Of a stretch of 56,512 nucleotides of DNA, positions 1 to 26,771 are shown piece by piece. Under the pieces are notes generated by a model. The model had not been told where the DNA came from, did no database searches, and saw only the letters and a list, made by a program, of their open reading frames with translations. The DNA is from Candidatus Hadarchaeota archaeon. Its GTDB lineage: Archaea > Hadarchaeota > Hadarchaeia > Hadarchaeales > Hadarchaeaceae. The translations under genes were made by a program, and so were the position numbers. Location of the stretch: positions 188,545 through 245,056 of the forward strand of contig CAZETV010000002.1 of the NCBI GenBank assembly GCA_964514965.1. Direction: 5' to 3'. The first letter of the stretch is position 1, and every line of letters begins with the position of its first letter.

Positions 1-300
1 TGTTGTCAAAACTGCTGGCGGCGATATAGGAACCATCAGAAGAGATTGAAACTGAGTGGACCCAACCGCCAGCCGTGTATGACCAAAGCGGAGTGCTGCT
101 GCTCTTAGAGAAGAGATAAACATTGTTACCACTGCCGGCGGCGATATAAGAGCCATCAGAAGAGATTGAAACTGAGTAGACCTGAGCACCAGTCCTGTAT
201 AACCAAAGCGGAGTGCTGCTGCTCTTAGAGAAGAGATAAACATTGTTGTCAAAACTGCTGGCGGCGATATAGGAACCATCAGAAGAGATTGAAACTGACA
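1..300. repeat. Three tandem copies of a ~120-bp unit (about 90% nt identity), partial at the window edge. This is the DNA image of the 40-aa propeller blades.
   Basis: Unit boundaries are at the recurring cattgtt motif at 121-127 and 241-247. Copies 1 and 3 are near-identical over about 55 nt; copy 2 is diverged. Confidence 0.8.
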
Positions 301-472
301 AAACCACACTGCCAGCCGTGTATGGCCAAGGTGTTGTGGTTGTAGTTGTGGACGGGTTTGTTGTGGTTGTAGTTGTCGAGAGAATGACGGCAGATGCAAT
401 AACAACTACAACAACTGTAACTACTATCCCCACTATCGCGTTTGTACTAATCCCCTTCTCCTCTCTTTTCAT
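1..472 (-). CDS. Partial (5' portion, runs off left edge) cell-surface beta-propeller repeat protein. N-terminal TM or signal segment, Thr-rich linker, then ~40-aa blade repeats of PQQ/YVTN type.
   Basis: Minus-strand translation from ATG (revcomp of 470-472) gives MKREEKGISTNAIVGIVVTVVVVIASAVILSTTTTTTNPSTTTTTTPWPYTAGSVVLSVSISSDGSYIAASSFDNNVYLFSKSSSTPLWSYRTG... Repeated unit is SISSDGSYIAAGS.DNNVYLFSKSSSTPLWSYTTGG.V.SV. Open to position 1. The listed plus ORF 318..500 (poly-Val) is its antisense. Confidence 0.7.
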   Translation of the reverse strand, partial: MKREEKGISTNAIVGIVVTVVVVVIASAVILSTTTTTTNPSTTTTTTPWPYTAGSVVLSVSISSDGSYIAASSFDNNVYLFSKSSSTPLWLYRTGAQVYSVSISSDGSYIAAGSGNNVYLFSKSSSTPLWSYTAGGWVHSVSISSDGSYIAASSFDN

Positions 473-948: not shown

Positions 949-1023
949 TGGGGCCGCCGGAATTTGAATCCGGGTCACCAGCACCCCAAGCTGGGAGGCT
1001 AGACCAAGCTACCCCACGGCCCC
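949..1023 (-). tRNA. tRNA-Pro (anticodon GGG), no intron, CCA not encoded.
   Basis: Revcomp reads GGGGCCG-TG-GGGT-AGCTTGGTCTA-GCCT-C-CCAGC-TTGGGGT-GCTGG-TGAC-CCGGA-TTCAAAT-TCCGG-CGGCCCC-A. Acceptor, T-arm and anticodon stems all pair; the D-stem has two GU pairs. Anticodon loop is TTGGGGT. Confidence 0.75.
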
Positions 1024-1066
1024 TGAGGAATCTAGTTCCATCTACATAAAAACAAGTTGTCGAAGA

Positions 1067-2017
1067 TTATGTATTGATAATATTAACTATCTGTTTATTT
1101 GTCTCTTGCGGCGGCTCAATAGTATTAACCATATAAACATCCGTCAATTTGAAAAGCTTTTTGAAAAAATCCTTCCTGAGTTGCAGCTTTCGTTGGTCTC
1201 TTACCAATTGATGAGGGTTGCAAAAATCATTCGCCAGCAAATAATCCAGTGCCTCCTCAGGGCTGAGCTTTCTGATCACTTTTGGGTCATCTTTATCCCT
1301 CTTGAGCAGGATAATTTTTCTGAGTGTCGTCATCGGTATTACCCCACCACTACCTACTATCCACCTCACATTTACGACCGCCCTTCCACGCGAATCGAAA
1401 CGGGCTTTTTTCACGAGCCCCTCATATTCCTTCCATATGCTCCCGATATCTGCCTCGACATAGCAGTTCTTCTCCGAGCCGAAAGCAAGAGGGCCCTGCT
1501 CGTAAATTCTCACGAAATACCAGTCATCCGTCACCAGCCTCGCCCCTTCCAATCTCAACAGACCCCATGAGTGAGTCGTCTTGCCAGTTTTAGGTGGCGC
1601 TATGATGGAAACACCCGTTCCCTTCACGTCTATCGCTGCTCCGTGGACGGAGTATATCCCGTGTTCGTCTTCGAGAACATCACCCGCCACGGAAAGGGTG
1701 ATGCTCTTTATCCACCCATAGTAGTCGACATTGGTCAGGAACGCTGTATTCGTATAGGGGTCATACTTGACATCGAGCTGGTTCCCCTCCTCTCTCAAAA
1801 CGACGATGCGACCATGCGATCGGATGTTCTCGTCCATTGTGTAAAAGTTTTCATCCCATAGGTCTTTCACGTCCTCCAATTCTGTCAGGAGCTTTATGCA
1901 ACAACCGTAGATGTTCGCCTTCTTGGTATACAGGTACCGCTTTAAATTGAGCTCGAAGAGCCTCTGCTTCTCCTCGGGCATGATTAACTTTACCTCATAT
2001 TTCAAGGAACTCATCAA
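1067..2017 (-). CDS. HprK/P-like P-loop serine kinase homologue (N-domain plus C-terminal kinase core), adjacent to RuBisCO.
   Basis: VHGAAIDVKGTGVSIIAPPKTGKTTHSWGLLRLEGARLVTDDWYFV matches the HprK core pattern vHGvlvdv.G.GvLi.G.SG.GKSE.ALeL..rGh.LvaDD. The Walker A sits mid-protein as in HprK/PEPCK-fold kinases. Length 316 aa, similar to HprK. Confidence 0.5.
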   Translation of the reverse strand: MMSSLKYEVKLIMPEEKQRLFELNLKRYLYTKKANIYGCCIKLLTELEDVKDLWDENFYTMDENIRSHGRIVVLREEGNQLDVKYDPYTNTAFLTNVDYYGWIKSITLSVAGDVLEDEHGIYSVHGAAIDVKGTGVSIIAPPKTGKTTHSWGLLRLEGARLVTDDWYFVRIYEQGPLAFGSEKNCYVEADIGSIWKEYEGLVKKARFDSRGRAVVNVRWIVGSGGVIPMTTLRKIILLKRDKDDPKVIRKLSPEEALDYLLANDFCNPHQLVRDQRKLQLRKDFFKKLFKLTDVYMVNTIEPPQETNKQIVNIINT

Positions 2018-2024
2018 ATCACAT

Positions 2025-3320
2025 TTACTTGGGCCTGATATATCCCCACTTCTCTATGGCGGCCCTCAATTCTCCTCTTCCCTTGGCGTATTCTTCAAGC
2101 GGAACTTTCCTTAGCGTAGCATCGATGGCCTGACGCACAGCTGCTGCCCCCGCTCGTCCACCTAGCGGATGTCCCCAAACACCGCCCCCAACTTGGATGA
2201 TAATATCTGTTCCAAACATGCCGATGATCTCGGGTACCAAACCTGGGTGCAACCCGCCTGAGATGACGGGGAAAACAGGTCTGATCGCGCGCCACTCTTG
2301 AGCTAGAATTTGCCGTCCCCTTTTAACGTTACTATTCATGATTTCTCTTTGTAGCGCCAGAACCTCCTCCCGTGGCGCCTCAAGCTTCCCTATTGCGGTG
2401 CCGATGTGGAGCTGGTCAACGCCCACAAGGCGAGCTATTTTTGCAACGGCTAACATAGACATCCCATGCTCTGGCTTGCGCGTGAATGCGGCGTGGAACG
2501 CACGGTGAGCGTGGATCGCGAGCCCTAAATCTTCACAATCATCGCGCAGCGATTGAACTCCTGCCCACCCCGCCGTCAGGATATCTACCATCACATACTC
2601 CCCACCTTGCTCCTTTACGAATTTCGCGCGGCGGAGCATTTCTCGCGTCTCGGCGGTCACGTTAATCAAATAGCTCTTTCGTTCTCCAGTTTCGTGCTCG
2701 GCTCGGTCGCGCAGCTCAAGCGACTTAGTCACCCTGCGTTCGAATTGGTTGAATCGCTGCCCAGAGAGGTTCTCATCGTCCTTGAGCAGGTCAATGCCGC
2801 CTACCCAAGCTTCGTATCCCGCTCGAGCGTGCTCCTCGCTGCTCATCCCGACTTTGGGCTTTGGCACCGTTGCGGTCAGCGGCCCCTCTCTCCCCTTGAA
2901 TATCTTTCTGATGCCCTTGATACCAAACTGAGGACCCTTGAAAGATTTTATGAGCTCCGGAGGCCACCGCACGTCCTCGAGCCTGAGATTGCGCACGGCT
3001 TTCATCCCGAAGATGTTGCCCGCGATCGAGCTAAGCACTTGGGGCATGTTCCCCGCCTCGAAGAGGTCAAGCGGGTAGGCCACCTTCACCCACCGCCCTT
3101 TAATTTCGTAGGCCTTCGCCATGAGTCGTCGCTTTTCGGGCGTCATCGTCGTAAGGGTGGTCCAAGTGCCAATCGAGCTCTCCGAGGCCACGCGCCCCAC
3201 GGCTTCTCGCATGCTAATGCCGTTCGCAGGCTCAACTCTAAACAAAACGATCAAGTCCTCGCGGGCGGGCCTGTAGCTCGGGTCGACGAAATCTAAATAC
3301 CATTCGGTCTTCATGCTCAT
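2025..3320 (-). CDS. rbcL: Ribulose-1,5-bisphosphate carboxylase/oxygenase large subunit, archaeal form III.
   Basis: Motifs GIDLLKDDENL, LAIHAHRAFHAAFTR, GGGVWGHPLGGRAGAAAVRQA. 431 aa. No small-subunit gene nearby. Confidence 0.9.
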   Translation of the reverse strand: MSMKTEWYLDFVDPSYRPAREDLIVLFRVEPANGISMREAVGRVASESSIGTWTTLTTMTPEKRRLMAKAYEIKGRWVKVAYPLDLFEAGNMPQVLSSIAGNIFGMKAVRNLRLEDVRWPPELIKSFKGPQFGIKGIRKIFKGREGPLTATVPKPKVGMSSEEHARAGYEAWVGGIDLLKDDENLSGQRFNQFERRVTKSLELRDRAEHETGERKSYLINVTAETREMLRRAKFVKEQGGEYVMVDILTAGWAGVQSLRDDCEDLGLAIHAHRAFHAAFTRKPEHGMSMLAVAKIARLVGVDQLHIGTAIGKLEAPREEVLALQREIMNSNVKRGRQILAQEWRAIRPVFPVISGGLHPGLVPEIIGMFGTDIIIQVGGGVWGHPLGGRAGAAAVRQAIDATLRKVPLEEYAKGRGELRAAIEKWGYIRPK

Positions 3321-3561
3321 GAACCAATTAACAATAGCTTTTCAAGTAAAAATACACTTAGCGCTTGAATTTCGCTCTATCGTCTCAAATGGGCTGAGAT
3401 ACATTTGCGAATCCACATCCATTTTATCCAACCGTCAGATCCATTGTCTCTCCACTAGGTTAGGACTAAGCAATACCGCTTATTTCTTTTCTTTCTCTTC
3501 GGCGGTTCGTTTCGATTCACATTTCCCCATCTCACGTTTGGCTAAGCCGCCAACGACTGAA

Positions 3562-5620: not shown

Positions 5621-6970
5621 ATGGGTTGTATGTTTTCGAAGCTCGACACAAAACGTTTAAATCCCGCATATATCGAAATTCGATACGAGATTAGATACAA
5701 GGTGAAGTGTGTGGAGGTAAAACCACTTAGTAATATCATAGCTATCGGAAAGACGACGCGGGGGGGCAGACCATTCCCTGTCAGAAGGCATCGGGGCCTG
5801 TACTTTTTCATCCCGGTTGAGCAGTTCGACTGGTTAAGGGAAGTAAATGATGCTTACAAGACCCTCTACCGAATGGAGGGGGGGGTAGAGCCGCTTCAGA
5901 AGATAAAGATAGTTGGGAGAGGAGGCGTTGAGGGATACAAGCCATTCTTGCTCAGGGGGCACTACGGACGGTATTTGTGCATCCTCGCCGAGCATCTTAG
6001 ACAGCTCAAGCAGATCAACCGCGCGTATGCGGAACTACTTGAAGCTAAAGGGCTGGAGAAAGAGCGCAAGAGGAGGTTAGAAGAGAAGGAACGAGCGAGC
6101 AAAATTGTAGAAAGCGTGAAAGCGGCGGTAGAGGACGCCCGAAAGATAGGAGCACCCGAACATGGGGCCGAACTCATGCGGCCCGTCGACGAATCCCTTG
6201 CCGAAATCGAGGCTGCGTTCATCGCCGAGGAATACAACAAGACCATTGAGCTGGCATCAAAAGTGGATGAACTGGTCCGAGAAGCTAGGGCAAAAGCGCT
6301 CAAGAAAATCGAGGAAACGAAAAAGATCGAAGCGGTGAAAAGACCTCCAGAAGAGGGGAGGTACGTTTACTGCATCATCCCTTGGGAGGGGAGCCACAGC
6401 AGGCTTAGCTTTGGAGACTTGGGTGTAGAGGGCAACGGCGAGGTGTACGCCATACCCTTTGGAGACATCGCAGCGGTCGTGAGCAACGCCCCCTTCAAGG
6501 AATACGTGCTCACCGAGGACAACATACGCACCCATAACCAAGTCATAACGCGCGTGATGCAGGAGTACCCTGTCGTGCCAATGGCTTTCGGCATGGCGTT
6601 CAAAAATGAGGGGGTGCTCAAAGGGTTGCTCGGGAGGATGCGCGATGATTTGAAAAATGCCCTAAATGAAGTCAAGAGCAAGGTCGAACTCGGCGTCAAG
6701 GTGATCTTGCCGGAGGGGACCGAGTTCGACGAGAACGCATTTGCATCTGAGATCAAGGCGCTTCACGAGCTGGCGACCCAATGCAAGCTCGGCAAGCGGT
6801 TCAGCAAGCGTTTGATCTTGAACGCGTTTTATCTAGTAGCGAAAGAAAAAGTGGAAGATTTCCTAGGCGCGGCTAAAGCGCTGGAGGAGAAGTTCAAACA
6901 GCTGAGTATACAGTGCACTGGTCCATGGCCCCCGTTCAACTTCGCAACAATAAAAGTTGGAGGTAGGTGA
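5621..6970 (+). CDS. gvpF: GvpF/GvpL-family gas vesicle protein with a ~240-aa N-terminal extension (two copies of a ~45-aa domain plus a coiled coil).
   Basis: C-terminal 205 aa (GRYVYCIIPWEG...GDIAAVVSNAPFKEY...VVPMAFGMAFKNEG...TGPWPPFNF) is canonical GvpF/L. The N-term contains IIAIGKTTRGGRPFPVRRHRGLYFFIPVEQFDWLREVNDAYKTL and KIKIVGRGGVEGYKPFLLRGHYGRYLCILAEHLRQLKQINRAYAEL, the same duplicated domain as in ORF 9969..10274. Confidence 0.8.
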   Translation: MGCMFSKLDTKRLNPAYIEIRYEIRYKVKCVEVKPLSNIIAIGKTTRGGRPFPVRRHRGLYFFIPVEQFDWLREVNDAYKTLYRMEGGVEPLQKIKIVGRGGVEGYKPFLLRGHYGRYLCILAEHLRQLKQINRAYAELLEAKGLEKERKRRLEEKERASKIVESVKAAVEDARKIGAPEHGAELMRPVDESLAEIEAAFIAEEYNKTIELASKVDELVREARAKALKKIEETKKIEAVKRPPEEGRYVYCIIPWEGSHSRLSFGDLGVEGNGEVYAIPFGDIAAVVSNAPFKEYVLTEDNIRTHNQVITRVMQEYPVVPMAFGMAFKNEGVLKGLLGRMRDDLKNALNEVKSKVELGVKVILPEGTEFDENAFASEIKALHELATQCKLGKRFSKRLILNAFYLVAKEKVEDFLGAAKALEEKFKQLSIQCTGPWPPFNFATIKVGGR

Positions 6971-7265
6971 GGTGCCCTTCCTAGTCGATGACATAGTTCT
7001 CCGAATGCTCGGGATTTCGATCCCGCCCTTCGACATGATCTGGTTGCTGGAGACCATACGGGACTTCGCCGTTCGGGAAGTCTATGATCCTGAAAAGATA
7101 AGCGACTCGATAAAGGAAAACCGGATGCTCTACGAACTCGGGGAGATCACGAAGGAGGAGTATGAGCGGGTCAATACAGAGCTCCTCGAGGCGCTCGAGA
7201 TAGCAAAGCGTGCTAGGGAGACGAAGATCGAGCACCGCATCGATATTTTGGGAATTGGTGGGTAG
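6957..7265 (+). CDS. gvpG: GvpG-like gas vesicle protein.
   Basis: FLVDDIVLRMLG...YDPEKISDSIKENRMLYELGEITKEEYERVNTELLEALE matches the GvpG pattern as remembered. Position between gvpF and gvpH. Overlaps the gvpF stop. Confidence 0.6.
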   Translation: MEVGEVPFLVDDIVLRMLGISIPPFDMIWLLETIRDFAVREVYDPEKISDSIKENRMLYELGEITKEEYERVNTELLEALEIAKRARETKIEHRIDILGIGG

Positions 7266-7266
7266 G

Positions 7267-7791
7267 ATGAAAAGGCACCCTATGCAACTATGCAGGCTCC
7301 TCTTTGGCAACATATTTCACGACCTAGAAAAGCTGGCGAGGACAGTAGATGCGCTCGCCAAAGAGGGAGAGGTCCGGAAGGGGTACAAAGAGGGCCCCTT
7401 CATCGTCGAGTACCGGCGGACCGTTCGCTACATCCGCCCTGAGTCCACCGCTCCAGCCCCCGAAGCACCGCGAATCGAAATCAAGCCGAAACCAATCGAG
7501 GCCGAGGCCAAGCCTAGGGAATCGCTAGTGGACGTTTTCGACATGGGAGATCATATCTTGGTCATGGTCGGGCTCCCCGGTGTGAAGGAGGAAGATATCG
7601 AGTTCGAGACCGTGGGCAGCGCGCTCAAGATCAAGATTCACACACCCGGTGGCGATGTCGAGGGCGATATCTCGATTGCGGGAGTTGAACAGGTTAAAGA
7701 AATCATGGGTGCCTCTTTCAAGAACGGCACCCTCGAAATCAAACTGAAAAAAATAAGGGAGGTGAAGAGATGGGAACCAGCACAGCGATAG
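7267..7791 (+). CDS. gvpH: GvpH-like Hsp20/alpha-crystallin-domain protein.
   Basis: ESLVDVFDMGDHILVMVGLPGVKEEDIEFETVGSALKIKIH...GTLEIKLKK is an Hsp20 ACD. ATG at 7267 directly follows the gvpG stop. The track ORF starts at 7210 on an upstream alternative start. Confidence 0.75.
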   Translation: MKRHPMQLCRLLFGNIFHDLEKLARTVDALAKEGEVRKGYKEGPFIVEYRRTVRYIRPESTAPAPEAPRIEIKPKPIEAEAKPRESLVDVFDMGDHILVMVGLPGVKEEDIEFETVGSALKIKIHTPGGDVEGDISIAGVEQVKEIMGASFKNGTLEIKLKKIREVKRWEPAQR

Positions 7792-8174
7792 GGGTCGGGG
7801 GGCTGAGGAGGCGCAGGCGAAAGGCCATGATATCTAAAACAGTTGCGCGGAGCAAGCTGAGCAGGGACAGATCGAGAGTCAAGCTGCTGCACGCGAGGGA
7901 GCGGTACAAGATGAAGGTGTGGAAGCACGAGCGCGGGATGGCAGCCAGAAAGGCGGAGCAACCAAGCAAGCTTGGTCCGCTTGCGGTATCGTTCATGCCT
8001 TCGAAAGAGTCCGCCAAGCGATCCAGGCTGGTGCAGCCCCGCTGGTCGGCCGTGCCCAGCAAGCCCAAGTATTCCGATGTGAAGCCGAAGGAGAGGCTCT
8101 ACGGGCTGAGGTTCGAGGCGCGCGAGAAGCGACTCGCAAAGCAGGAGTCCGAGGAGAAAAAGCCCAAGGAATAG
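7770..8174 (+). CDS. gvpI: Basic Arg/Lys-rich protein in the gvpI position.
   Basis: 134 aa, very basic (RRRRRK, KAEQPSK, KPKYSDVKPKE...), as GvpI is described. Synteny between gvpH and gvpJ. Confidence 0.45.
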   Translation: MGTSTAIGVGGLRRRRRKAMISKTVARSKLSRDRSRVKLLHARERYKMKVWKHERGMAARKAEQPSKLGPLAVSFMPSKESAKRSRLVQPRWSAVPSKPKYSDVKPKERLYGLRFEAREKRLAKQESEEKKPKE

Positions 8175-8184
8175 GTAGGTGTGG

Positions 8185-8544
8185 ATGATGGTAGCTATCG
8201 CCCCGACAAGGGAGGGCCCGAGCGACTTAGCTCAAACAATCGAGAAGATTCTCGACAAGGGACTCGTGCTAGACGCCGACATCGCGGTTTCGGTCGCCGG
8301 TACCGAGTTGCTGGGCATAAAGATTCGCGCCGCACTCGCCTCTTTCGAAACCGCCGCGAAATATGGTCTCGAGTTTCCGAGCGGCGTCAACCTCAATGCC
8401 CCTGCATGGAAAGAGATAAACGTGAAAAAGGCGAAGTGCCCGGGCTGTGGAAACGAGTGTCCGGAGGAGGAGCTGCTCAAGCGGGGTTGTCCAATCTGTG
8501 GCTGGATGAGCCCGCTGAAGCCAAGACAGGCCCCGATCCCCTAG
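8185..8544 (+). CDS. gvpJ: GvpA-family (GvpJ-position) protein with a C-terminal CxxC...CxxC zinc ribbon.
   Basis: LAQTIEKILDKGLVLDADIAVSVAGTELLGIKIRAALASFETA is the GvpA/J/M core. C-terminal CPGCGNECPEEELLKRGCPICGW. Confidence 0.75.
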   Translation: MMVAIAPTREGPSDLAQTIEKILDKGLVLDADIAVSVAGTELLGIKIRAALASFETAAKYGLEFPSGVNLNAPAWKEINVKKAKCPGCGNECPEEELLKRGCPICGWMSPLKPRQAPIP

Positions 8545-8553
8545 GTGGTAAAC

Positions 8554-8868
8554 ATGGCAATCGAGATCGATGAGTACAACCTCAAACAAGGGTTGCTGGG
8601 GCTGGTAGTCGCTCTCGCCGAAGTCATCCAAGAGGTGCTCGAGCACCAAGCGCTGCGGAGGATGGAGTCGGGTGGGCTGACCGATGCTGAGGTGGAGCGG
8701 CTCGGCAACGCTCTCATCGAGCTCGACGAGGCACTTGAACGCATCAAGCGGGAGAACGGAATCGAGGAGTGCGTGAGGTCCGTGCGAGATGGGCTCGACC
8801 AAGTAGCGGACGAGGCCATCCGTAAGCTAGCCGACCCGCAGGAGTGGGCAAGGGAGGCCACATCGTGA
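8554..8868 (+). CDS. gvpK: GvpK gas vesicle protein.
   Basis: LLGLVVALAEVIQEVLEHQALRRMESGGLTDAEVERLGNALIELDEAL matches the GvpK signature. GGTGG SD 5 nt upstream of ATG 8554. Confidence 0.8.
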   Translation: MAIEIDEYNLKQGLLGLVVALAEVIQEVLEHQALRRMESGGLTDAEVERLGNALIELDEALERIKRENGIEECVRSVRDGLDQVADEAIRKLADPQEWAREATS

Positions 8869-9653
8869 ACGGAACCCAAAAAGCGACCGAGGGGAGGTAC
8901 CTATACTGTATAGCCAGCTGCGGCGATGGGTTGTCACTGGGAGAGATAGGGATAGACAAGGGCCAAGTTTACACGATTACGCATAACGACATCGCTGCAG
9001 TAGTACACGTTTGCCCGCCCAAGCCCTATGAGTCCAAGGACGAGGAGCGCGTGAAGCGCTGGGTCTTCACCCACAACTACATCATCGACCAAGCCACCAA
9101 GCGATTCGGCACGGTGCTGCCTTTCTCTTTCGATTCTATCGTCAAGGGGGACGACGACGCGGTGGAGGGATGGCTGAGCGAGAATTACTCCCGATTTAAA
9201 GGTGAGCTCGAGAGGCTCAGAGGGAAGTCGGAACACACGGTACAGATCTTCTGTGACGCCTCCTTGTTAGCGCGGAGGATTGAAAAAGACAACCAGGAGA
9301 TTGGGTGGCTCGCGGAAGAGATCAAAGTAGCTCCCAAGGGAAAAGCCCACCTACTCGAACGGAAGCTCCAAAAGATGATTAGGGAGGCCGTGGCAGCTCA
9401 GGTTCGCGATTGGTCCAAAAAGTTCCATGTGCAGATAGAAGAACATGTCGAGGAGGCGAGGGAGGAGCGAAGCAGGTTCGTGCCCGAGCGGTTCAAGGAT
9501 AAGAAACTCGTGCTAGGCCTATCGTGCTTGGTCAGCGAGGGGAAAGTCGAAAAACTCGGAGAGGTGCTCCGCCAAATAAACGAGCAAGAAGGGTTCTCGG
9601 TGCGGTTCACGGGGCCTTGGGCGCCATTCAGCTTTGTGAGGTTGACCAAATGA
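8865..9653 (+). CDS. gvpL: GvpL (second GvpF/L-family protein).
   Basis: GRYLYCIASCGDG...HNDIAAVVHVCPPKPY...TGPWAPFSFV. GTG start at 8865 overlaps the gvpK TGA (GTGA), with GGGAGG SD upstream. The track ORF uses an earlier GTG at 8844. Confidence 0.8.
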   Translation: MNGTQKATEGRYLYCIASCGDGLSLGEIGIDKGQVYTITHNDIAAVVHVCPPKPYESKDEERVKRWVFTHNYIIDQATKRFGTVLPFSFDSIVKGDDDAVEGWLSENYSRFKGELERLRGKSEHTVQIFCDASLLARRIEKDNQEIGWLAEEIKVAPKGKAHLLERKLQKMIREAVAAQVRDWSKKFHVQIEEHVEEAREERSRFVPERFKDKKLVLGLSCLVSEGKVEKLGEVLRQINEQEGFSVRFTGPWAPFSFVRLTK

Positions 9654-9883
9654 GGCCGACGCGGGAGTGCGGGCTCGTCGAGTTGCTCGATAAGATTTTG
9701 GACAAGGGCGTGGTGCTCAACGCAGATGTTATCATCTCGGTCGCTGGGGTTCCACTGGTGGGGGTGAGCCTCCGCGCTGCGCTTGCCGGAATCGAAACGA
9801 TGTTGGACTACGGCATAATGGAGGCTTGGGACCAGAGCATTAGGGAGCATTACTCAGAGGAGCTGGCGAAGAGAAAAGCGTAG
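9650..9883 (+). CDS. gvpM: GvpA-family (GvpM-position) minor gas vesicle protein.
   Basis: LVELLDKILDKGVVLNADVIISVAGVPLVGVSLRAALAGIETMLDYG. ATG overlaps the gvpL stop (ATGA). The track ORF 9524 is an upstream extension. Confidence 0.8.
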   Translation: MRPTRECGLVELLDKILDKGVVLNADVIISVAGVPLVGVSLRAALAGIETMLDYGIMEAWDQSIREHYSEELAKRKA

Positions 9884-9968
9884 GTGGGGCTTGCAGGGAA
9901 TGCTATTTCTGCTTGATTATGGCTGAAAAATCAAGCCACTGCTTTCTTGCATTTACCTGCTTCCTTTG

Positions 9969-10274
9969 TTAAAGCTCTCGATACGCTTCGTTGACCGCCC
10001 GAAGCCGCTCGAAGTCCTCCGCAAGGATGCAGAGGCAGCGTTCCCCCCTCACAAGAAATAGCTTGAAACCAAGTACGCCACCTCTGCCCACGATTTTTGG
10101 CTTGCTGAGTGGCTTCACCTTGGCCCTCCCCCTAGACAGCGCCTTGTAAGCTTCATTAATTTTCAGTAGTCTCTCGATGTCCCTTGCCGAGATAAATAAA
10201 TAGTCGCCTTTTTGCCCGGTGATTCTGAATGGCTCCTCGGTCCCTCGCTTACCTATAACCTTTATCCTCTTCAA
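9969..10274 (-). CDS. Standalone protein made of two copies of the ~45-aa domain also found at the N-terminus of GvpF (5621).
   Basis: IKVIGKRGTEEPFRITGQKGDYLFISARDIERLLKINEAYKAL plus KPKIVGRGGVLGFKLFLVRGERCLCILAEDFERLRAVNEAYREL. Convergent with gvpM. Confidence 0.55.
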   Translation of the reverse strand: MKRIKVIGKRGTEEPFRITGQKGDYLFISARDIERLLKINEAYKALSRGRAKVKPLSKPKIVGRGGVLGFKLFLVRGERCLCILAEDFERLRAVNEAYREL

Positions 10275-10385
10275 CGCTCTTACCGCCAGAGGTTCACCTT
10301 CATCCAGTCCCTCTTACCCATAGGGTTTTTCCATTTCCTTTCGCCCTTCGACATATCGCATGAACTCCCGCATGATGTCCTCGTA

Positions 10386-12551
10386 CTACCTTACCATCTC
10401 CGGAGTCATCGTCGGTCGAACCTTCTTTATCGCCCCATCGAAGTGCTTGCACTCGATCCGCTTGTCCTTGAGCGCCTTCCGCATCGCTTCCTTAGTCATC
10501 CCGGGCTTAATCGCCTCCCGGAGCGAGAGCATCACTGCCTCCCTGCATATCGCCGCTATGTCCGCGCCCACGTAGCCTTCGGTCCCCTTGGCGAGCGCGC
10601 TCAAGGAAACGTCCTTTGCAAGAGGTTTCTCCTTGAGGTGGACCTTGAAGATTTCCTCGCGCTCCTTCGGGTCGGGAGGTAGAACGTAAATCAGCCTGTC
10701 GATTCGGCCCGGCCTCAGCAGCGCCCGGTCGATCATGTCGGGCCGGTTGCTAGCGCACAGCACGAGCACATCCTTCAGCTCCTCCAACCCATCGAGTTCG
10801 GTCAACATCTGACTAACGACGCGCTCGGAGACATGCGAGTCGAAACTCACCGCGCGCGTCGGGCACATCGCATCGATTTCATCGAAAAAGACGATGCAGG
10901 GGCTTGCTTGCCTCGCCTTCCTGAACATCTCCCTCACGCCCCGCTCGCTCTCGCCAACCCACTTCGACAGCAGCTCTGGGCCTTTAATCGAGATGAAGTT
11001 CGCCTCGCTCTCGGTCGCGACGGCCTTCGCCAGCATTGTCTTGCCAGTGCCGGGGGGTCCGAACAATAAAATCCCCTTGGGGGGCTTGGTCTTGAAGCGC
11101 TCGAAAGCTTCGGGGTACTTGAGTGGCCACTCCACCGCCTCGATCAGCTCCTGTTTTGCCTGCTCCAAGCCGCCTATGTCATCCCAGTGCACGTTGGGGG
11201 CTTCGATGAACACCTCCCGCATCGCGCTGGGAGTCACAGTCTTGAACGCATTTGAAAAATCATTCATCGTGACTTCAAGTGCCTCAATGATCTCAGCTGG
11301 AATCTCCTTCTCGATCTCGATTTTCGGCAGGATCTTGCGCAGGGCGCTCATCGCCGCCTCCTTGCATAGCCCAGCGAGGTCAGCGCCTACAAAGCCGTGA
11401 GTTATGTCGGCGAGGTAGTTGAGGTTGACATCTTCTGTGAGTGGCATCCCGCGCGTGTGGATCTGCAGGATCTCGTAGCGCCCGTTTCGGTCTGGGATGC
11501 CTATCTCGATTTCGCGGTCGAATCTTCCTCCTCGGCGCAACGCCTCATCGAGAAGGTTGGGTTGGTTAGTTGCACCAATTACAACAACTTTTCCGCGCGT
11601 CTTAAGACCATCCATCAGCGAGAGAAGTTGCGCCACCACCCGCCGCTCAACCATCCGCTCCCCAGTCATCTCCGAGCGTTTTGGGGCAATCGCGTCTATC
11701 TCATCGATTAGGACGATCGCTGGAGGGTTCGCCTCCGCCTGCTCGAATATCTCCCTGAGGCGGGCCTCTGACTCCCCATAGTACTTACCGATCACTTCTG
11801 GACCCGAGACGAAAACGAAGTTCGCATCGGTCTCGTTTGCTACCGCCTTCGCTATTAGCGTTTTGCCTGTGCCTGGGGGGCCATGGAGCAGTACCCCTTT
11901 AGGGGGCTCAATCCCCAGCCTCTGAAAGAGTTCGGGATGCTTTAGCGGTAGCTCGATCATCTCACGGATGAGTCCTACCTCGCGCTTCAGCCCGCCGATG
12001 TCCTCGTAGGTGACGTAGGTCCGCATAGCCTCGATTGGCTTCTCTGCGAGCGTGACCTCGGTCTCCGGGACAACGATAACAACGCCCGTGGGCTGGGTGG
12101 AGGTGACGATGAAAGTAAGTGGTCTACCTAGAATATCGACTCGAATTTGCTGGTCCTTGATGATCGGCTGCCCCTCGAGCACCTTGCGGATGTACTCGTC
12201 GCCCTCCACTATCCTTATCGGCTCCGTGGGGGCAACACTTATTCTCCTCGCCTTCTCGGCGGCGGCCTTCCTGATCTCAACCCGCTCACCGATTCCAATG
12301 CTTGCGTTGCTCCGAATGTTACCATCGATCCGAATTATCCCACTGCCCGAATCCTCGGGATAGCACGGCCAAACAATCGCGTAAGCAGACCCCTTCCCCT
12401 TAATCTCGACGATGTCCCCGCTGACCATACCTAACTTTTTCATCACCTCTGAGTCTACCCGCGCTATCCCCCGACCTGCGTCGCGGTGCTTCGCCTCAGC
12501 AACTAGCAGGATTTGGGGCACGTTACCACGATTTTGTTCTCGCTTCCTCAA
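10386..12551 (-). CDS. cdc48: CDC48/VCP-type AAA+ ATPase (N-domain plus two AAA modules).
   Basis: Two Walker A sites (GPPGTGKT twice), SRH motifs, N-terminal double-psi barrel region. 721 aa. Confidence 0.9.
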
Positions 12552-12585
12552 CCTTTAAACGTGAAAAAAATGTGCTCGATACGGG

Positions 12586-12873
12586 TCATGTCATAAATTC
12601 TAATCCCTCTCGATCAGACCTGCGCCTTACCCGCACCTGATTGAACCCCTGTACTCCGCCATCCTCGCTGAGCGAGAGTTCGTACCTGCCGATCAAATCC
12701 TGAGCGTCGGGTATCGCTTTTCGCTCGAGCACTTCAACGAGCAGTTTCCACCCTCCCCCCTTCTCCTTCGAGACACCGATCACCGACTCAAACGGTTTCT
12801 TTATTGTCTCCTTGACAAATGCCGGAGCCATGTCAACTATCTCGACCGCTTTCCTCTCTTTTTTCTCCGCCAT
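12586..12873 (-). CDS. gvpO: GvpO-like gas vesicle protein.
   Basis: MAEKKERKAVEIV...GGGWKLLVEVLERKAIPDAQDLIGRYELSLSEDGGVQGFNQVRVRRRSD. GGAGGT SD before this ATG. The track ORF 12586..13020 is an upstream extension. Confidence 0.6.
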   Translation of the reverse strand: MAEKKERKAVEIVDMAPAFVKETIKKPFESVIGVSKEKGGGWKLLVEVLERKAIPDAQDLIGRYELSLSEDGGVQGFNQVRVRRRSDREGLEFMT

Positions 12874-12883
12874 GTTTAACCTC

Positions 12884-13249
12884 CTACGGCACGTAGATGT
12901 AGCCACCGCGCTTGTAGGGTACCACCTTGACGCTTTTGCCCTTCCAGTTCGCAACCCCCTCACGGACGTTATAGCGCTCCACATCTTTGGCCAGCTTGTA
13001 GTATTTGAGGAACTTCGCAAATCGCTGCTGCTTGGCCCTGCCGCCCGCGCGGAGCGCCGATGTGCTGAAAGTGCCGTCCGATTTTAGTCGTAAGTAAAAC
13101 GTCGTGCTCACGGTTCGCCCGTCTGGAGTTTTAGCCGCCACTATTACAGCATCGGTGTCTGCGATTGTCAGCCCTGGTGGCTTCTTCCGCCATAGCTTGC
13201 TTATCTTGCAGACCCTTACATCCTCTATCGTCGCACTCAACCTTTCCAT
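12884..13249 (-). CDS. Hypothetical gvp-associated protein inserted between gvpN and gvpO.
   Basis: 121 aa, no family recognised. Tightly packed in the gvpA-C-C-N-?-O operon. Confidence 0.4.
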   Translation of the reverse strand: MERLSATIEDVRVCKISKLWRKKPPGLTIADTDAVIVAAKTPDGRTVSTTFYLRLKSDGTFSTSALRAGGRAKQQRFAKFLKYYKLAKDVERYNVREGVANWKGKSVKVVPYKRGGYIYVP

Positions 13250-13259
13250 AACCTCACCC

Positions 13260-14288
13260 CTAACTTGGTATCACCTCTTTCACGAGGCGTTGCTTATTGA
13301 CAAGATCGACGGGCCCCTTAACCTTCGTCGCTAAGATATCGAGAACCAGTTCTTCGAGCCGCTTCTCGCCGTCGCCTAGCACCATGAGTCCTTGAGCGAC
13401 CATTATACAGGCCCGCGTCCCAGGCTTCTCGGCATCGGGCAGTTTTTCCCTTATCTTTCTGATAATCTCCACTATCCTCCGCGCATCTGCGTCGGATACT
13501 CCCGAATGCGCCGTCGTGATCTCCACCTCGGTCTCTGGGTCGTAGAAGTCCATGTAGATTCCAACGGTGCGATCAAGCAGCGCGTCCTGCGGGCGGTGCA
13601 CCCCGGCGTAGTCGACCGAGTTGCTCGTGAATATCGCCATGAATTCCGGATGGGCCTTGATGTATCGCTCCTCGCCGAATCGCGTGGGGAGTTCCAGCAC
13701 GCCCTCTTGGAACACCGAAAGCAGGACGTTGTTAGCTTCAGGCTTCGCTCGGGAGAAATCGTTATAGACGAAGATGTAACCATTCTTGCACGCGATCGTC
13801 AGCGGGTTGTCCACCCAACCAGCTTTCAGGATATTTTTCGCCTTGAGGACGGTGTGAACGTAACGGTCGCGGATGCTCTCACTCTCCACCTGTGAGTAAC
13901 CACCAACGAGATCAGTCGTAGTCATTGACTCGTCTCCGTTCAGCCAGACCGTCGGCTTTCCCAGCTCTTCGGCCACTTTCATCGCGAGCGTGGTCTTCCC
14001 GCAGCCGGTCGGGCCAATGATGTGAACAGGGTAGCCGGCGTTGAGCCAGAGCTTCACCTTCTCCTTGAGTTTTTTGACTTGCTCGGTCTCGACGAAATGC
14101 TCGACCTTCGGCATCAGGTATCTGGTCTCCACCGTTTCAGCAGCGAGTTCAGGTCTCACAGTAATCGCTCGCTTAACGAATTCCGCGCGCTTCGCACGTT
14201 CCTCGCGCCACCGCTCTTTTGCCTCCTCCAAGGTCTCGGTGATTCGCTCTCCCCTGACTTTCTTAGGATGGGCCCGTCTCCATCTCAC
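13260..14288 (-). CDS. gvpN: GvpN AAA+ (MoxR/CbbQ-like) gas vesicle ATPase.
   Basis: VHIIGPTGCGKTTLAMKVAEELGKPTVWLNGDESMTTTDLVGGY... Single AAA module, 342 aa. Confidence 0.85.
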   Translation of the reverse strand: MRWRRAHPKKVRGERITETLEEAKERWREERAKRAEFVKRAITVRPELAAETVETRYLMPKVEHFVETEQVKKLKEKVKLWLNAGYPVHIIGPTGCGKTTLAMKVAEELGKPTVWLNGDESMTTTDLVGGYSQVESESIRDRYVHTVLKAKNILKAGWVDNPLTIACKNGYIFVYNDFSRAKPEANNVLLSVFQEGVLELPTRFGEERYIKAHPEFMAIFTSNSVDYAGVHRPQDALLDRTVGIYMDFYDPETEVEITTAHSGVSDADARRIVEIIRKIREKLPDAEKPGTRACIMVAQGLMVLGDGEKRLEELVLDILATKVKGPVDLVNKQRLVKEVIPS

Positions 14289-24663: not shown

Positions 24664-25788
24664 TCATCTCCTTTTATTTTTCAACATCTCAACGAAGCGG
24701 TCAAAAAGGTACTGATTATCCTGCGGTCCTGGGGAGCCTTCCGGATGATATTGCACGGAGAAAACAGGGAGTTCCTCGTGATCGATTCCTTCAACCGTGC
24801 CGTCGTTGCAGTTGATTTTTGTAACTTTGAATCCAGTACCTTGTAGGCTTTCCGCGTCAATCGCAAAACCGTGGTTCTGCGCGGTTATGTGAACTTTCCC
24901 AGTTTGAAGGTCCTTAACTGGCTGATTAGTCCCGCGATGTCCAAACTTGAGTTTAAAAGTCTTCGTTCCAGCAGCCAAAGCCAAAATTTGATTACCCAAA
25001 CATATACCCATAATCGGATATTTTTCCATTAGTTGCCCAACGGTCTTGTGGAGGTGGGTCAAAACCGCTGGGTCACCCGGGCCATTTGATATCACGATGC
25101 CATCTGGCTCCAATGCCTCAATTTGGCTCACGTCCATCGTTGCGGGAACAGCGATTACTGAGAGTCCTCTTTTGACTAGACTTCTGAGGATACTTCTTTT
25201 AACTCCGCAGTCGATGAGCACGATTTTTAACTTACCCCCATTGCCAAATCTGTTTATTTCCTTCCGAGTTGTTTCCCCAACCAAGTCCTGCTCTGAAATG
25301 TCTGGATGCTTCCTAACCTTTTCAAGCAACTCTTCGACATGGGGCTCTTTACCTTCATAAGTAACCATGCCGCATTTCATCGTGCCATATTTTCTAACCT
25401 TGATCGTTAACGCGCGAGTATCCACGCTCATGATGCCAGGAATCTTGAATTCCTCCAAGAACTCTTCGAGCTTTTTTGTTCCCTTCCAATGAGATGGCTC
25501 CTCGCAGAGTTCCCTGAGTACCAATCCCTTAACCCAAATTCTATCTGACTCGAACCAATCGGGATGCACTTTGTAGTTCCCAATCAACGGATAGGTAAAC
25601 ATCAGGATTTGCCCATTGTAAGAAGGGTCCGTCAAAGACTCAACGTAGCCTGTCATCGATGTGTTGAAAACGATTTCACCAAGCGCTTCCCTTTTAGCTC
25701 CTAATCCCGCTCCCCTGAATACTGTTCCATCTTCGAGCACTAGCATCGCTTTAATGTTCTCGCTCAGATTTGAGTGGTGGGATTTCAA
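24664..25788 (-). CDS. carA: Carbamoyl-phosphate synthase small (glutaminase) subunit.
   Basis: LVLEDGTVFRGAGLGA... GICLGNQILALAAG...HGFA. No carB adjacent. Confidence 0.9.
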   Translation of the reverse strand: MKSHHSNLSENIKAMLVLEDGTVFRGAGLGAKREALGEIVFNTSMTGYVESLTDPSYNGQILMFTYPLIGNYKVHPDWFESDRIWVKGLVLRELCEEPSHWKGTKKLEEFLEEFKIPGIMSVDTRALTIKVRKYGTMKCGMVTYEGKEPHVEELLEKVRKHPDISEQDLVGETTRKEINRFGNGGKLKIVLIDCGVKRSILRSLVKRGLSVIAVPATMDVSQIEALEPDGIVISNGPGDPAVLTHLHKTVGQLMEKYPIMGICLGNQILALAAGTKTFKLKFGHRGTNQPVKDLQTGKVHITAQNHGFAIDAESLQGTGFKVTKINCNDGTVEGIDHEELPVFSVQYHPEGSPGPQDNQYLFDRFVEMLKNKRR

Positions 25789-26771
25789 ATTTTTTTCAAC
25801 TCCTTAACAGAGATGAGGCAGTGCGGTGCAAATGTTTCGATCTTGGCTCCGCGTTCTTTCATGATGACAGCGGGTATCAACCCACCAACCATAGAAATTC
25901 CAACTCTGTCCATGCTTACTGGAATACCCAGAATGGCTTCATTGGGCTTACCAAAGGCTAAGATTCCACCCCATCCTTTATCTTTTAGGTTTGAAATCAC
26001 TCGTTGCGTAGCATCCCCCGCAGTCATTGGAAGCTCTCTTAAACCAGCGGTTAACATCCCAGAACCGGTCTTGAGGACGCTATCTATTGAAGTCATGCCC
26101 CTGTAAACGAACACCTCCAGAGGCGGTATTGTTGTTCCATTGTAGGAAATCAGCTCCACGAAGCGGATGGGTTTGTATTTCAAAAATTGAACCAGACCTC
26201 CATAAGTAGGGATTATCGGAATACCTGAGTGCATAAGGACGCCATCTATTGTAAGATTGCAAACGGTAAAAATAGCTATTTGCCCTTTTGGAACGGATAT
26301 TTCGCCATGTTCTTCTCCTTCATCCAACACTTTGATGTAAGGAGCCAACAGGAGATCCTTTTCGTGGAGGGAATCCAAGACCTTGAGAACCCGATCGTGA
26401 AGGGCCTTGTCCACGAAGGAAACATTAGCGACCACCTTTCCTTTATCACTCCTAGGTTCGTAAGTCACAGTATACGCTAAAGATAGGAAACGCGTGGTAA
26501 CGAAGCCCACTCTTTCATAAGCTAACGCCCTGCCAAGCTCTTTTAGTCCCTCCTGAGTTATCGTTCTCCCACTCCGATCATGCCCATGAATGAGACCTCT
26601 AGCTTGTAATAATTGAAGGTGATATCTTATCGCCCTCTCGCTGAGCAGAAAACCTCTTCTCCTCAGTTCTCGGCTAAGCATCGTAGAGCCTAAGGGTTTA
26701 TCATGCCCGCTCAAAGCCTTTAAAATCTCAATCTCCTTCCTGTTGCTCTCGTTCTGCCCAGAATCAAGCAT
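25785..26771 (-). CDS. nrpR: NrpR-like nitrogen regulatory repressor (wHTH plus one NRD/DUF128 domain).
   Basis: ILKALSGHDKPLGSTMLSRELRRRGFLLSERAIRYHLQLLQARGLI... Paralogue of 38452..39453. Heads the nrpR-carA-purF-pyrG string, divergent from glnA. Confidence 0.65.
   Translation of the reverse strand: MLDSGQNESNRKEIEILKALSGHDKPLGSTMLSRELRRRGFLLSERAIRYHLQLLQARGLIHGHDRSGRTITQEGLKELGRALAYERVGFVTTRFLSLAYTVTYEPRSDKGKVVANVSFVDKALHDRVLKVLDSLHEKDLLLAPYIKVLDEGEEHGEISVPKGQIAIFTVCNLTIDGVLMHSGIPIIPTYGGLVQFLKYKPIRFVELISYNGTTIPPLEVFVYRGMTSIDSVLKTGSGMLTAGLRELPMTAGDATQRVISNLKDKGWGGILAFGKPNEAILGIPVSMDRVGISMVGGLIPAVIMKERGAKIETFAPHCLISVKELKKI

What the first reader, a model, noticed from the sequence alone, without database searches (positions are those of the whole stretch)
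1067..3320. HprK/P-like kinase gene adjacent to form III RuBisCO
An HPr-kinase-like P-loop protein (316 aa, N-domain plus kinase core) is encoded 7 nt downstream of rbcL on the same strand, a likely operon. HprK-family proteins are rare in archaea. The pairing with RuBisCO hints at a sugar-phosphate kinase or regulatory role in a pentose-bisphosphate or RuBisCO-linked pathway, and the protein is not a classical phosphoribulokinase.
Basis: partly seen in the sequence, partly recalled or inferred. Interest (0 to 1): 0.55.

Follow-up and report, generated by a model that had tools for sequence, protein, structure and literature searches.

The report
Half-size PEPCK-like kinase beside RuBisCO
The gene just downstream of a form III RuBisCO gene in this Hadarchaeota archaeon is real, but it encodes an uncharacterised half-size relative of phosphoenolpyruvate carboxykinase rather than an HPr kinase, and its substrate is still unknown.

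Summary
A form III rbcL lies at 2025..3320(-) and a 315/316-aa P-loop gene at 1067..2017(-), 7-10 nt apart and probably co-transcribed.

Most PEPCK catalytic residues are kept. The Mn-ligand Lys213 is Ser.

The family is large, unnamed and very conserved, at about 70% identity between phyla. No Pfam or NCBIfam model reaches its cutoff, and I found no paper on it.

The rbcL pairing is conserved in Hadarchaeota, across two RuBisCO lineages. It is absent in other lineages:
- Bathyarchaeia place the gene upstream of phosphoglycerate mutase.
- Methanomassiliicoccales place it after homoserine dehydrogenase.
- Methanobacteriaceae place a 43%-identical subfamily after aroA'/aroB'.
- Two loci have archaeal PEP carboxylase nearby.

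My best reading is a minimal PEPCK-type small-molecule kinase working at the 3PG/PEP/oxaloacetate node. A non-classical phosphoribulokinase is not excluded, but it is less likely.

The parts
2025..3320 (-). rbcL, form III RuBisCO large subunit (431 aa)
   Evidence: TIGR03326 scores 615 bits (cutoff 497). Pfam RuBisCO_large_N and RuBisCO_large are both found. The motifs KPK, KDDE, HAHRAFH, GK, SGG and GGG are intact.
1067..2017 (-). Minimal PEPCK-fold P-loop kinase (316 aa from TTG 2017; probably 315 aa from ATG 2014)
2018..2024 (-). 7-nt spacer between the rbcL stop and the TTG (10 nt to the ATG). It contains GTGAT, a partial Shine-Dalgarno match.
   Evidence: Read from the sequence. There is no room for a promoter. 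The Shine-Dalgarno reading is my own inference.
1574..1600 (-). Walker A / kinase-1a loop APPKTGKTT (residues 140-148). K146 and T147 align with E. coli PEPCK K254 and T255.
1703..1723 (-). YYGWIKS (residues 99-105), the PEPCK-specific substrate and metal loop. Y99 aligns with Y207 and K104 with K212. S105 stands where PEPCK has the Mn ligand K213.
   Evidence: hmmsearch and hhalign alignments. Y100, G101, K104 and S105 are invariant across both subfamilies.
1523..1528 (-). D164-D165, the kinase-2 motif, aligned with E. coli D268/D269 (D269 is a Mn ligand)
   Evidence: D165 is invariant.
1643..1645 (-). H125, aligned with PEPCK H232 (Mn ligand)
   Evidence: Invariant.
3321..3561 (-). 241-nt intergenic region upstream of rbcL. 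An A/T-rich TATA-like box TATTTTTA lies at 3347..3354, about 30 nt before the ATG. This is the probable promoter of the pair.
   Evidence: Read from the sequence. The archaeal promoter assignment is inferred, because the tool's sigma-70 scan does not apply to archaea.
1048..1055 (-). Oligo-T tract (TTGTTTTT) 12-19 nt after the kinase stop codon, a candidate archaeal terminator
   Evidence: Read from the sequence. No hairpin terminator was found. Inferred.
949..1023 (-). tRNA-Pro(GGG), the downstream boundary of the gene pair
   Evidence: ARAGORN. A targeted Rfam scan gives 52 bits.

Best explanation
The gene encodes a catalytically competent, half-size member of the PEP carboxykinase fold. It keeps the cores of both PEPCK domains, the P-loop and most of the metal and substrate residues. 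It is co-transcribed with form III RuBisCO.

I propose that it is a nucleotide-dependent small-molecule phosphotransferase acting on a C3/C4 2-oxo or enol acid at the 3PG -> 2PG -> PEP <-> oxaloacetate node. The most likely reaction is PEPCK-type: PEP + CO2 + ADP <-> oxaloacetate + ATP. The related ATP-yielding PEP -> pyruvate reaction is also possible. Under this reading, 3-phosphoglycerate made by RuBisCO in Hadarchaeota, or handled by ApgM in Bathyarchaeia, is passed on with conservation of ATP. The product feeds aspartate-family and other oxaloacetate-derived biosynthesis.

Shown: the fold, the residue conservation, the gene linkage and the distribution. Inferred: the substrate, the direction of the reaction and co-transcription.
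For: Fold and homology:
- Foldseek's top 35 hits are all ATP-PEPCK.
- hhalign gives 99.4% over 292 columns.
- The family profile aligns with a genuine PEPCK_ATP domain over profile positions 62-300, E 6e-15.

Conserved equivalents of E. coli PEPCK residues: Y207, K212, H232, K254, T255, D268/D269, E282, Y286, R333, N440/T441 and T455.

Gene context points repeatedly to the PEP/oxaloacetate node and its neighbours:
- RuBisCO, whose product is 3PG, lies directly upstream in Hadarchaeota.
- ApgM (3PG<->2PG; TIGR00306 412 bits) lies directly downstream in 39 of 51 non-Hadarchaeota loci (Bathyarchaeia, Methanomassiliicoccales and a few others) that have at least 1300 nt of downstream sequence. PFK, class II FBP aldolase and a glycogen-synthase-like glycosyltransferase lie nearby. 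The aldolase is my reading of its sequence, not a family scan.
- Archaeal PEP carboxylase lies two genes away in L020 and in L097.
- Homoserine dehydrogenase with an ACT protein lies upstream in Methanomassiliicoccales.
- ADH synthase, which uses aspartate semialdehyde, and DHQ synthase II lie upstream in Methanobacteriaceae.
- Aspartate dehydrogenase, NadA and NadC lie downstream in several Hadarchaeota (my reading of the sequences).

Degenerate copies of the domain are fused to two oxaloacetate-handling enzymes: canonical PEPCK, and a class I/II aminotransferase that scores best against aspartate-aminotransferase models, below their cutoffs.

Identity of about 70% between phyla fits a central-metabolic enzyme.
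Against: - The Mn-ligand Lys213, invariant in the 12-sequence PEPCK alignment built here (A5), is Ser in every member (S105). K288 is Glu in this subfamily.
- The equivalent of the oxaloacetate-binding Arg65 could not be located, because residues 1-44 were not aligned by hhalign.
- No Pfam PEPCK_ATP hit was found.
- Canonical 540-aa PEPCKs exist in some Hadesarchaea and Bathyarchaeia (P0356, P0333, P0387), so a second PEPCK may be redundant. Co-occurrence in the same genome was not tested.
- No enolase, malate dehydrogenase or other direct partner is conserved next to the gene.
- The contexts are heterogeneous, and archaeal operons often mix functions.
- No biochemical data exist.
Confidence: 0.4

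Rival explanations
1. It is a non-homologous phosphoribulokinase or another pentose-phosphate 1-kinase (Ru5P -> RuBP, or R5P/R1P -> R15P). It would supply RuBisCO with substrate.
For: The rbcL-kinase pair is tightly conserved in Hadarchaeota and has survived replacement of the RuBisCO lineage. Classical PRK is reported missing in Bathyarchaeia that have form III RuBisCO (PMC8407382). No PRK, AMP phosphorylase or R15P isomerase was seen among the genes of the 56-kb window that I annotated. A ketose C1-OH next to a carbonyl could in principle sit on the PEPCK metal site; this is my own inference.
Against: The ~70%-identical orthologues in Bathyarchaeia and Methanomassiliicoccales have no rbcL within 10 kb and pair with apgM or hom. 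The 43%-identical Methanobacteriaceae subfamily sits with aroA'/aroB'. No pentose-pathway gene is a conserved neighbour. All known PEPCK-fold enzymes act on C3/C4 acids or on proteins.
Confidence: 0.12
2. It is a 2-hydroxy-acid or phosphoglycerate kinase, for example glycerate 2-kinase, 2PG/3PG -> 2,3-BPG, or the unidentified lactate -> 2-phospholactate kinase of F420 synthesis. It would use the PEPCK metal site to phosphorylate a C2 oxygen.
For: 3PG/2PG is the only metabolite shared by the two strongest neighbours, RuBisCO and ApgM. The change of the Mn-ligand Lys to Ser and of K288 to Glu suggests chemistry different from canonical PEPCK. The taxa that carry it (methanogens, Bathyarchaeia, Dehalococcoidia) are F420 users; this rests on my own knowledge.
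Against: No F420, glycerate or cDPG genes are among the conserved neighbours. The family was not seen in the other methanogen orders in the listed hits. This remains purely inferential.
Confidence: 0.18
3. It is an HprK/P-like protein kinase/phosphorylase, or a metabolite-sensing regulator, that modifies RuBisCO, ApgM or another enzyme.
Against: Whole-chain similarity is to PEPCK, including the PEPCK-specific YYGxxK loop and the R333 equivalent, both of which bind small substrates. No HPr or PTS context was found. The partner genes differ between lineages although the protein is ~70% identical. The standalone proteins keep the catalytic residues that the fused copies have lost.
Confidence: 0.1
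4. The adjacency to rbcL is a lineage-specific accident of gene order and has no functional meaning. The protein works in an unrelated pathway.
For: The linkage is confined to one phylum. Neighbours differ elsewhere.
Against: The pair persists while the flanking genes change. It is found with two RuBisCO lineages that are only 50% identical, with gaps of -25 to +20 nt. One MAG carries two copies of the kinase gene (L011, L012). L012 has rbcL directly upstream; L011 is cut 144 nt before the gene, so its upstream side is unknown.
Confidence: 0.15

Closest known systems
ATP-dependent PEP carboxykinase (PckA; Pfam PF01293; e.g. E. coli 1aq2, T. cruzi 1ii2, T. thermophilus 2pc9)
   Same: Same two-domain fold over 294 of 316 residues. 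It keeps the P-loop GxGKTT, the DD kinase-2 motif, the YxGxxK loop, the His and Asp Mn ligands, the R333 equivalent, the LVNT motif and the T455 equivalent.
   Different: It is about 60% of the size (316 aa against 510-540). The peripheral insertions, and the N-terminal ~100-140 residues as aligned, are missing. Mn-ligand K213 is Ser, K288 is Glu, and R449 is absent. Arg65 has not been located. It does not reach any Pfam or NCBIfam PEPCK threshold.
HPr kinase/phosphorylase (HprK/P; PF07475, TIGR00679)
   Different: The score is below the family thresholds (23 against 33.3 bits; 20.5 against 240). The N-terminal half is PEPCK-like, not HprK-like. It has the PEPCK-specific loops. No HPr or PTS context was found.
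N-terminal accessory domain of ~880-900-aa archaeal PEPCKs (Asgard archaea, Bathyarchaeia), and the C-terminal domain fused to aspartate-aminotransferase-like enzymes
   Same: It is homologous over the full length of the mini-protein.
   Different: The fused copies have lost catalytic residues (H125->R, K104->R, DD->ND, and the P-loop is often destroyed). The standalone protein keeps them. These fused domains are themselves uncharacterised.
Phosphoribulokinase (PF00485), including the archaeal PRK of methanogens (Kono et al. 2017, PMC5241800)
   Same: It is a P-loop kinase encoded next to RuBisCO. This is a similarity of context only.
   Different: The fold family is different, and there is no sequence similarity (no Pfam hit).

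Membership tests
HPr kinase/phosphorylase (PF07475 / TIGR00679) | Score at or above the curated family threshold | tested here: not met
   Pfam 23.1 bits against 33.3, covering residues 123-174 only. TIGR00679 20.5 bits against 240.
HPr kinase/phosphorylase (PF07475 / TIGR00679) | Best structural match over the whole chain is HprK/P | tested here: not met
HPr kinase/phosphorylase (PF07475 / TIGR00679) | An HPr or PTS partner in the genome | not tested
   None was seen among the window genes that were annotated. The whole genome is not available.
ATP-dependent PEPCK (PF01293) | Score at or above the curated family threshold | tested here: not met
   No PF01293 hit. NCBIfam PEPCK subfamily scores 21.7 bits against 369.
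ATP-dependent PEPCK (PF01293) | Two-domain PEPCK fold | tested here: met
ATP-dependent PEPCK (PF01293) | Kinase-1a P-loop (K254, T255) and kinase-2 (D268, D269) | tested here: met
   K146, T147, D164 and D165 align with them. K146, T147 and D165 are invariant across both subfamilies; D164 is Glu in P0124.
ATP-dependent PEPCK (PF01293) | Mn2+ ligand triad K213 / H232 / D269 | tested here: not met
   H125 and D165 are present, but K213 aligns with the invariant S105. A shift of one residue that would make K104 the ligand cannot be excluded without coordinates.
ATP-dependent PEPCK (PF01293) | Oxaloacetate/PEP/CO2-binding residues R65, Y207 and R333 | tested here: inconclusive
   Y99 aligns with Y207. 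R212 aligns with the R of the TxNxR motif. The R65 region lies outside the hhalign range; the invariant K33 or H68 are candidates.
ATP-dependent PEPCK (PF01293) | Catalyses oxaloacetate + ATP <-> PEP + CO2 + ADP | not testable with these tools
   This needs an enzyme assay.
Phosphoribulokinase (PF00485) | Homology to the PRK/uridine kinase family | tested here: not met
   No hit in Pfam or NCBIfam.
Form III RuBisCO (TIGR03326), the upstream gene | Equivalog score and catalytic residues | tested here: met
   615 bits against 497. The KDDE carbamylation motif and the other motifs are intact.

The most novel reading that the evidence does not exclude
The mini-PEPCK is a fold-unrelated phosphoribulokinase or pentose-phosphate 1-kinase that makes RuBP for form III RuBisCO. 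That would give Hadarchaeota, and possibly Bathyarchaeia that are thought to lack PRK, a Calvin-like or reductive hexulose-phosphate-type CO2-fixing route.
Probability: 0.1. Interest if true: 0.9.

Novelty: new variant of a known kind. Interest (0 to 1): 0.6.

Why it matters
This is a large family with thousands of sequences in Hadarchaeota, Bathyarchaeia, Methanomassiliicoccales and Methanobacteriaceae, including cultured Methanobacterium species. It is conserved more strongly than the RuBisCO next to it. No Pfam or NCBIfam model reaches its cutoff on it, its database names are 'hypothetical protein' or occasional mislabels, and I found no paper on it.

It appears to be the smallest natural version of the PEPCK fold with an intact catalytic centre. 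It also naturally carries the K213S change that has so far been studied only as an engineered mutant.

Whichever reaction it catalyses, it is likely a missing or alternative step in the central carbon metabolism of abundant subsurface archaea and methanogens. The candidates are:
- an energy-conserving PEP carboxylation;
- an analogue of pyruvate kinase;
- a new hydroxy-acid kinase;
- an unconventional PRK.

The result would change metabolic reconstructions that now leave this gene out. The protein is small and soluble-looking, and cultured hosts exist, so the question can be tested directly.

Tried and rejected
- Sequence-only searches against the PDB, with a single sequence and with the family profile, found only HprK/P at E 3e-4 to 0.05. 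Taken alone this would have supported the HprK label. The structure and profile-profile comparisons overturned it.
- The first AF2 model, built from 25 close homologues, was poor (pLDDT 64) and was discarded. Adding distant relatives raised pLDDT to 94.
- The AFDB fold library was not available.
- I tried to test whether canonical PEPCK and the mini-protein occur in the same MAG by looking up the contigs of P0313 and P0356. The MAGs did not overlap with my loci, so the question stays open.
- Contexts of distant relatives (P0165, P0122, P0150, P0152) came from short contigs and told me little.
- Literature searches found nothing on this family: RuBisCO + HPr kinase + archaea, PEPCK-like + archaea, PEPCK + Bathyarchaeia + PGM, and HPr kinase + Methanobacterium or Bathyarchaeota.
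- My first guess that R66 corresponds to E. coli R65, based on spacing, is not supported by hhalign, which aligns residues 45-70 with E. coli 139-169. I withdrew it.
- The idea that the ApgM neighbour is really the 'proposed homoserine kinase' paralogue was rejected. TIGR00306 apgM scores 412 bits (cutoff 320), while TIGR02535 scores 284 (cutoff 446).
- The bacterial sigma-70 and hairpin-terminator scan is not informative for an archaeon.
Full report
**Observation.** The minus strand carries two adjacent ORFs: 2025..3320 (431 aa) and 1067..2017 (316 aa from a TTG). The first is a genuine form III RuBisCO. TIGR03326 scores 615 bits against a cutoff of 497, both Pfam large-subunit domains are found, and all catalytic motifs are present. 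The second ORF starts 7 nt after the rbcL stop codon if the TTG is used. It starts 10 nt after it if the ATG at 2014 is used, which matches the N-termini of homologues. The public gene call P0001 starts at Met13, but Y7 and I12 upstream of that are invariant in the family, so the longer form is the right one. Upstream of rbcL there is a 241-nt spacer with an A/T-rich TATA-like box about 30 nt before the ATG. Downstream of the kinase gene there is an oligo-T tract and then tRNA-Pro at 949..1023. Co-transcription of the pair is therefore likely, but it is inferred. The closest loci (about 90% identity) are Hadarchaeota MAGs.

**What the protein is.** Family libraries give only sub-threshold hits. 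Pfam Hpr_kinase_C scores 23.1 bits (cutoff 33.3) over residues 123-174, and an NCBIfam PEPCK subfamily model scores 21.7 bits over residues 93-189. Sequence searches of the PDB find only HprK/P, weakly.

A first AlphaFold model built from close homologues was poor. With distant relatives added, the model reached pLDDT 94.2 and pTM 0.91. The structure comparisons were:

| Comparison | Result |
|---|---|
| Foldseek, PDB | the 35 best hits are all ATP-PEPCKs, TM 0.70-0.78 on the query |
| hhalign, family alignment against a PEPCK alignment | 99.4%, E 8e-22, 292 columns (residues 45-316 against E. coli 139-484) |
| hmmsearch, family profile against a genuine PEPCK_ATP domain | profile positions 62-300, E 6e-15 |

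The protein is therefore a minimal two-domain PEPCK-fold enzyme. It is not an HprK/P with an HprK-type N-domain.

**Active site.** The residue roles below come from my knowledge of the crystallographic literature. They agree with the mutants named in the PDB titles (R65Q, Y207F, K212, K213S, S250A, K254S, D269N). The alignments give this map:

| E. coli PEPCK residue | Window protein |
|---|---|
| Y207 | Y99 |
| K212 | K104 |
| K213 (Mn ligand) | S105 |
| H232 (Mn ligand) | H125 |
| S250 | P142 (Ser in many members) |
| K254 / T255 | K146 / T147 |
| D268 / D269 | D164 / D165 |
| E282 / Y286 | E182 / Y186 |
| K288 | E188 |
| R333 (TxNxR motif) | R212 |
| N440 / T441 | N298 / T299 |
| T455 | T306 |
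| R449 | no counterpart |
| R65 region | outside the aligned range |

Thirty-five residues are invariant across the two main subfamilies. They include K33, T45, N57, H68, Y85, Y100, G101, K104, S105, H125, K146, D165, W166, E182, Y186, N267-H269, N298 and T299. The phosphoryl-transfer machinery is intact. The one striking departure is the Mn-ligand Lys, which is Ser throughout. The PDB holds exactly this change as an engineered mutant (2py7).

**The family.** There are 2190 homologues at E<=1e-3, and the best 120 are at least 66% identical. Mean column identity is 73% across Hadarchaeota, Bathyarchaeia and Methanomassiliicoccales. The family is found in 286 species-level genomes. In a library clustered at 50% identity, only 312 clusters match. 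A second subfamily, 41-44% identical to the window protein, belongs to Methanobacterium and other Methanobacteriaceae, including cultured species. It is annotated 'hypothetical protein' and has 1851 hits. One related sequence comes from Dehalococcoidia. More distant standalone relatives of 350-420 aa also keep the catalytic residues.

Degenerate copies of the domain occur in two fusions. One forms the N-terminal third of the ~880-900-aa PEPCKs of Asgard archaea and Bathyarchaeia. The other is fused C-terminally to class I/II aminotransferases whose best NCBIfam matches are aspartate aminotransferases, below cutoff. In these copies H125 is Arg, K104 is Arg, DD is ND, and the P-loop is often lost. 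I found no paper on the family.

**Gene linkage.** I called ORFs in 80 genome loci, clustered them, and annotated the recurrent neighbours.

- *Hadarchaeota.* rbcL lies directly upstream on the same strand in 15 of 18 loci with enough upstream DNA, with gaps of -25 to +20 nt. By tblastn, which also counts truncated loci, the figure is 22 of 25. The RuBisCOs fall into two lineages only about 50% identical to each other, both with intact catalytic motifs. The flanking genes vary, and one MAG has two copies of the kinase gene, only one of which can be scored for an upstream rbcL. So the pairing is selected for within this phylum.
- *Non-Hadarchaeota loci* (Bathyarchaeia, Methanomassiliicoccales and a few others). 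None of the 55 has rbcL within 10 kb. Instead, 39 of the 51 with at least 1300 nt of downstream sequence have archaeal cofactor-independent phosphoglycerate mutase downstream on the same strand, 36 of them directly (TIGR00306 412 bits). An M48 peptidase usually lies upstream, and PFK, class II aldolase (my reading of its sequence) and a glycogen-synthase-like transferase are often nearby.
- *Methanomassiliicoccales.* These loci have an ACT protein and homoserine dehydrogenase upstream.
- *Individual loci.* L020 (Hadarchaeum) reads PEP carboxylase, a phosphodiesterase-like gene, the kinase, TIM, then rbcL. L097 (Dehalococcoidia) reads the kinase, carA, archaeal PEP carboxylase, then carB.
- *Methanobacteriaceae subfamily.* This sits in a conserved string: methyltransferase-like gene, ADH synthase (aroA'), DHQ synthase II (aroB'), the kinase, ThpR, then the CCA enzyme. 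aroB' is directly upstream in 33 of 68 loci, and within three of my called ORFs upstream on the same strand in 43.

**Interpretation.** The fold, the preserved small-substrate loops (YYGxxK and the R333 equivalent) and the very high conservation argue for a small-molecule phosphotransferase rather than a protein kinase. The neighbours differ between lineages. Even so, they keep pointing to one stretch of metabolism:
- 3PG (RuBisCO, ApgM);
- PEP and oxaloacetate (PEP carboxylase twice, plus the PEPCK fusions and the fusions to aspartate-aminotransferase-like enzymes);
- oxaloacetate-derived aspartate semialdehyde (hom, aroA') and aspartate (the nadX-nadA-nadC genes near some Hadarchaeota copies).

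My best explanation (confidence about 0.4) is a minimal PEPCK-type enzyme that interconverts PEP and oxaloacetate. It may instead run the related ATP-yielding PEP -> pyruvate reaction. In this archaeon it would pass RuBisCO-derived 3PG onward with conservation of ATP.

Several facts count against this reading:
- the Lys213-to-Ser change;
- Glu at the K288 position;
- the unlocated Arg65;
- the existence of canonical PEPCKs in some members of the same phyla, although same-genome co-occurrence was not tested.

The rivals are:
- a hydroxy-acid or phosphoglycerate kinase (0.18);
- a chance linkage with an unrelated function (0.15);
- an HprK-like protein kinase or regulator (0.10).

**Comparison with known families, and novelty.** The protein resembles ATP-PEPCK in fold and catalytic layout, but it fails the membership tests for size, family score and the Mn-ligand Lys. 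It resembles HprK/P only in the shared kinase core and also fails that family's thresholds. It is best described as a new, uncharacterised, minimal variant of the PEPCK fold. Its interpretation is partly supported: the superfamily, the operon and the linkage within Hadarchaeota hold. Three points need correcting: the protein is not an HprK, the family is not rare in archaea, and the linkage is not general.

**Rest of the window.** I annotated the larger ORFs of the rest of the window. They include a gas-vesicle cluster and genes for nitrogen assimilation, nucleotide synthesis and other housekeeping functions. Among them there is no AMP phosphorylase, R15P isomerase, ApgM, PEP carboxylase or canonical PEPCK.

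Noticed in passing
window 5621-14288: A gas-vesicle gene cluster in a Hadarchaeota genome. It has GvpL/F twice, GvpG, GvpK, GvpA-type genes, an Hsp20-like gene, CDC48 and an AAA_5 (GvpN-like) ATPase. This is unexpected for a lineage known from subsurface and hot-spring sediments.
   Followed up: partly
window 3-365: Three tandem 120-nt direct repeats (88% and 73% identical to the first copy) lie inside an ORF on the minus strand that runs off the window start. They encode a repeated 'SISSDGSYIAA...' peptide, possibly beta-propeller-like.
   Followed up: partly
window 949-1023, 40788-40898, 51030-51125 (all minus strand): The tRNA tools disagree. The whole-window Rfam scan missed tRNA-Pro at 949-1023, which ARAGORN and a targeted Rfam scan both find. 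Rfam finds a 111-nt tRNA at 40788-40898 that ARAGORN does not list. The 96-nt tRNA at 51030-51125 gets no anticodon from ARAGORN. The last two are probably intron-containing archaeal tRNAs.
   Followed up: partly
window 25785-26771 (-) and 38452-39453 (+): Two NrpR nitrogen-repressor paralogues bracket glutamine synthetase, glutamate-synthase-like genes, anthranilate synthase and GMP synthase.
   Followed up: no
P0151, P0271-P0389; loci L083-L085, L087-L089: Many archaeal 'PEPCK' proteins of Asgard archaea and Bathyarchaeia are ~880-900 aa. They carry a catalytically degenerate mini-PEPCK domain in front of the canonical PEPCK_ATP domain. This looks like an internal duplication or fusion of unknown, possibly regulatory, role.
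   Followed up: partly
P0182, P0191, P0256: These are class I/II aminotransferases (best NCBIfam matches are aspartate-aminotransferase models, below cutoff) fused to a degenerate mini-PEPCK domain at the C-terminus (740-785 aa).
   Followed up: partly
L098-L177 (e.g. L125 6595-9487): In Methanobacteriaceae the 43%-identical subfamily lies in a conserved string: ADH synthase (aroA'), DHQ synthase II (aroB'), the mini-PEPCK, ThpR, then the CCA-adding enzyme. This hints at a link to the archaeal aromatic amino acid pathway or to aspartate semialdehyde supply.
   Followed up: partly
L005, L010, L012, L015-L017, L022, L025 versus L001-L004, L006-L009, L013, L018, L019, L024: Hadarchaeota carry two form III RuBisCO lineages that are only about 50% identical. 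Both lie at the same position upstream of the kinase gene. Kinase identity to the window protein does not track which RuBisCO lineage lies upstream, which suggests that rbcL was replaced in situ.
   Followed up: partly
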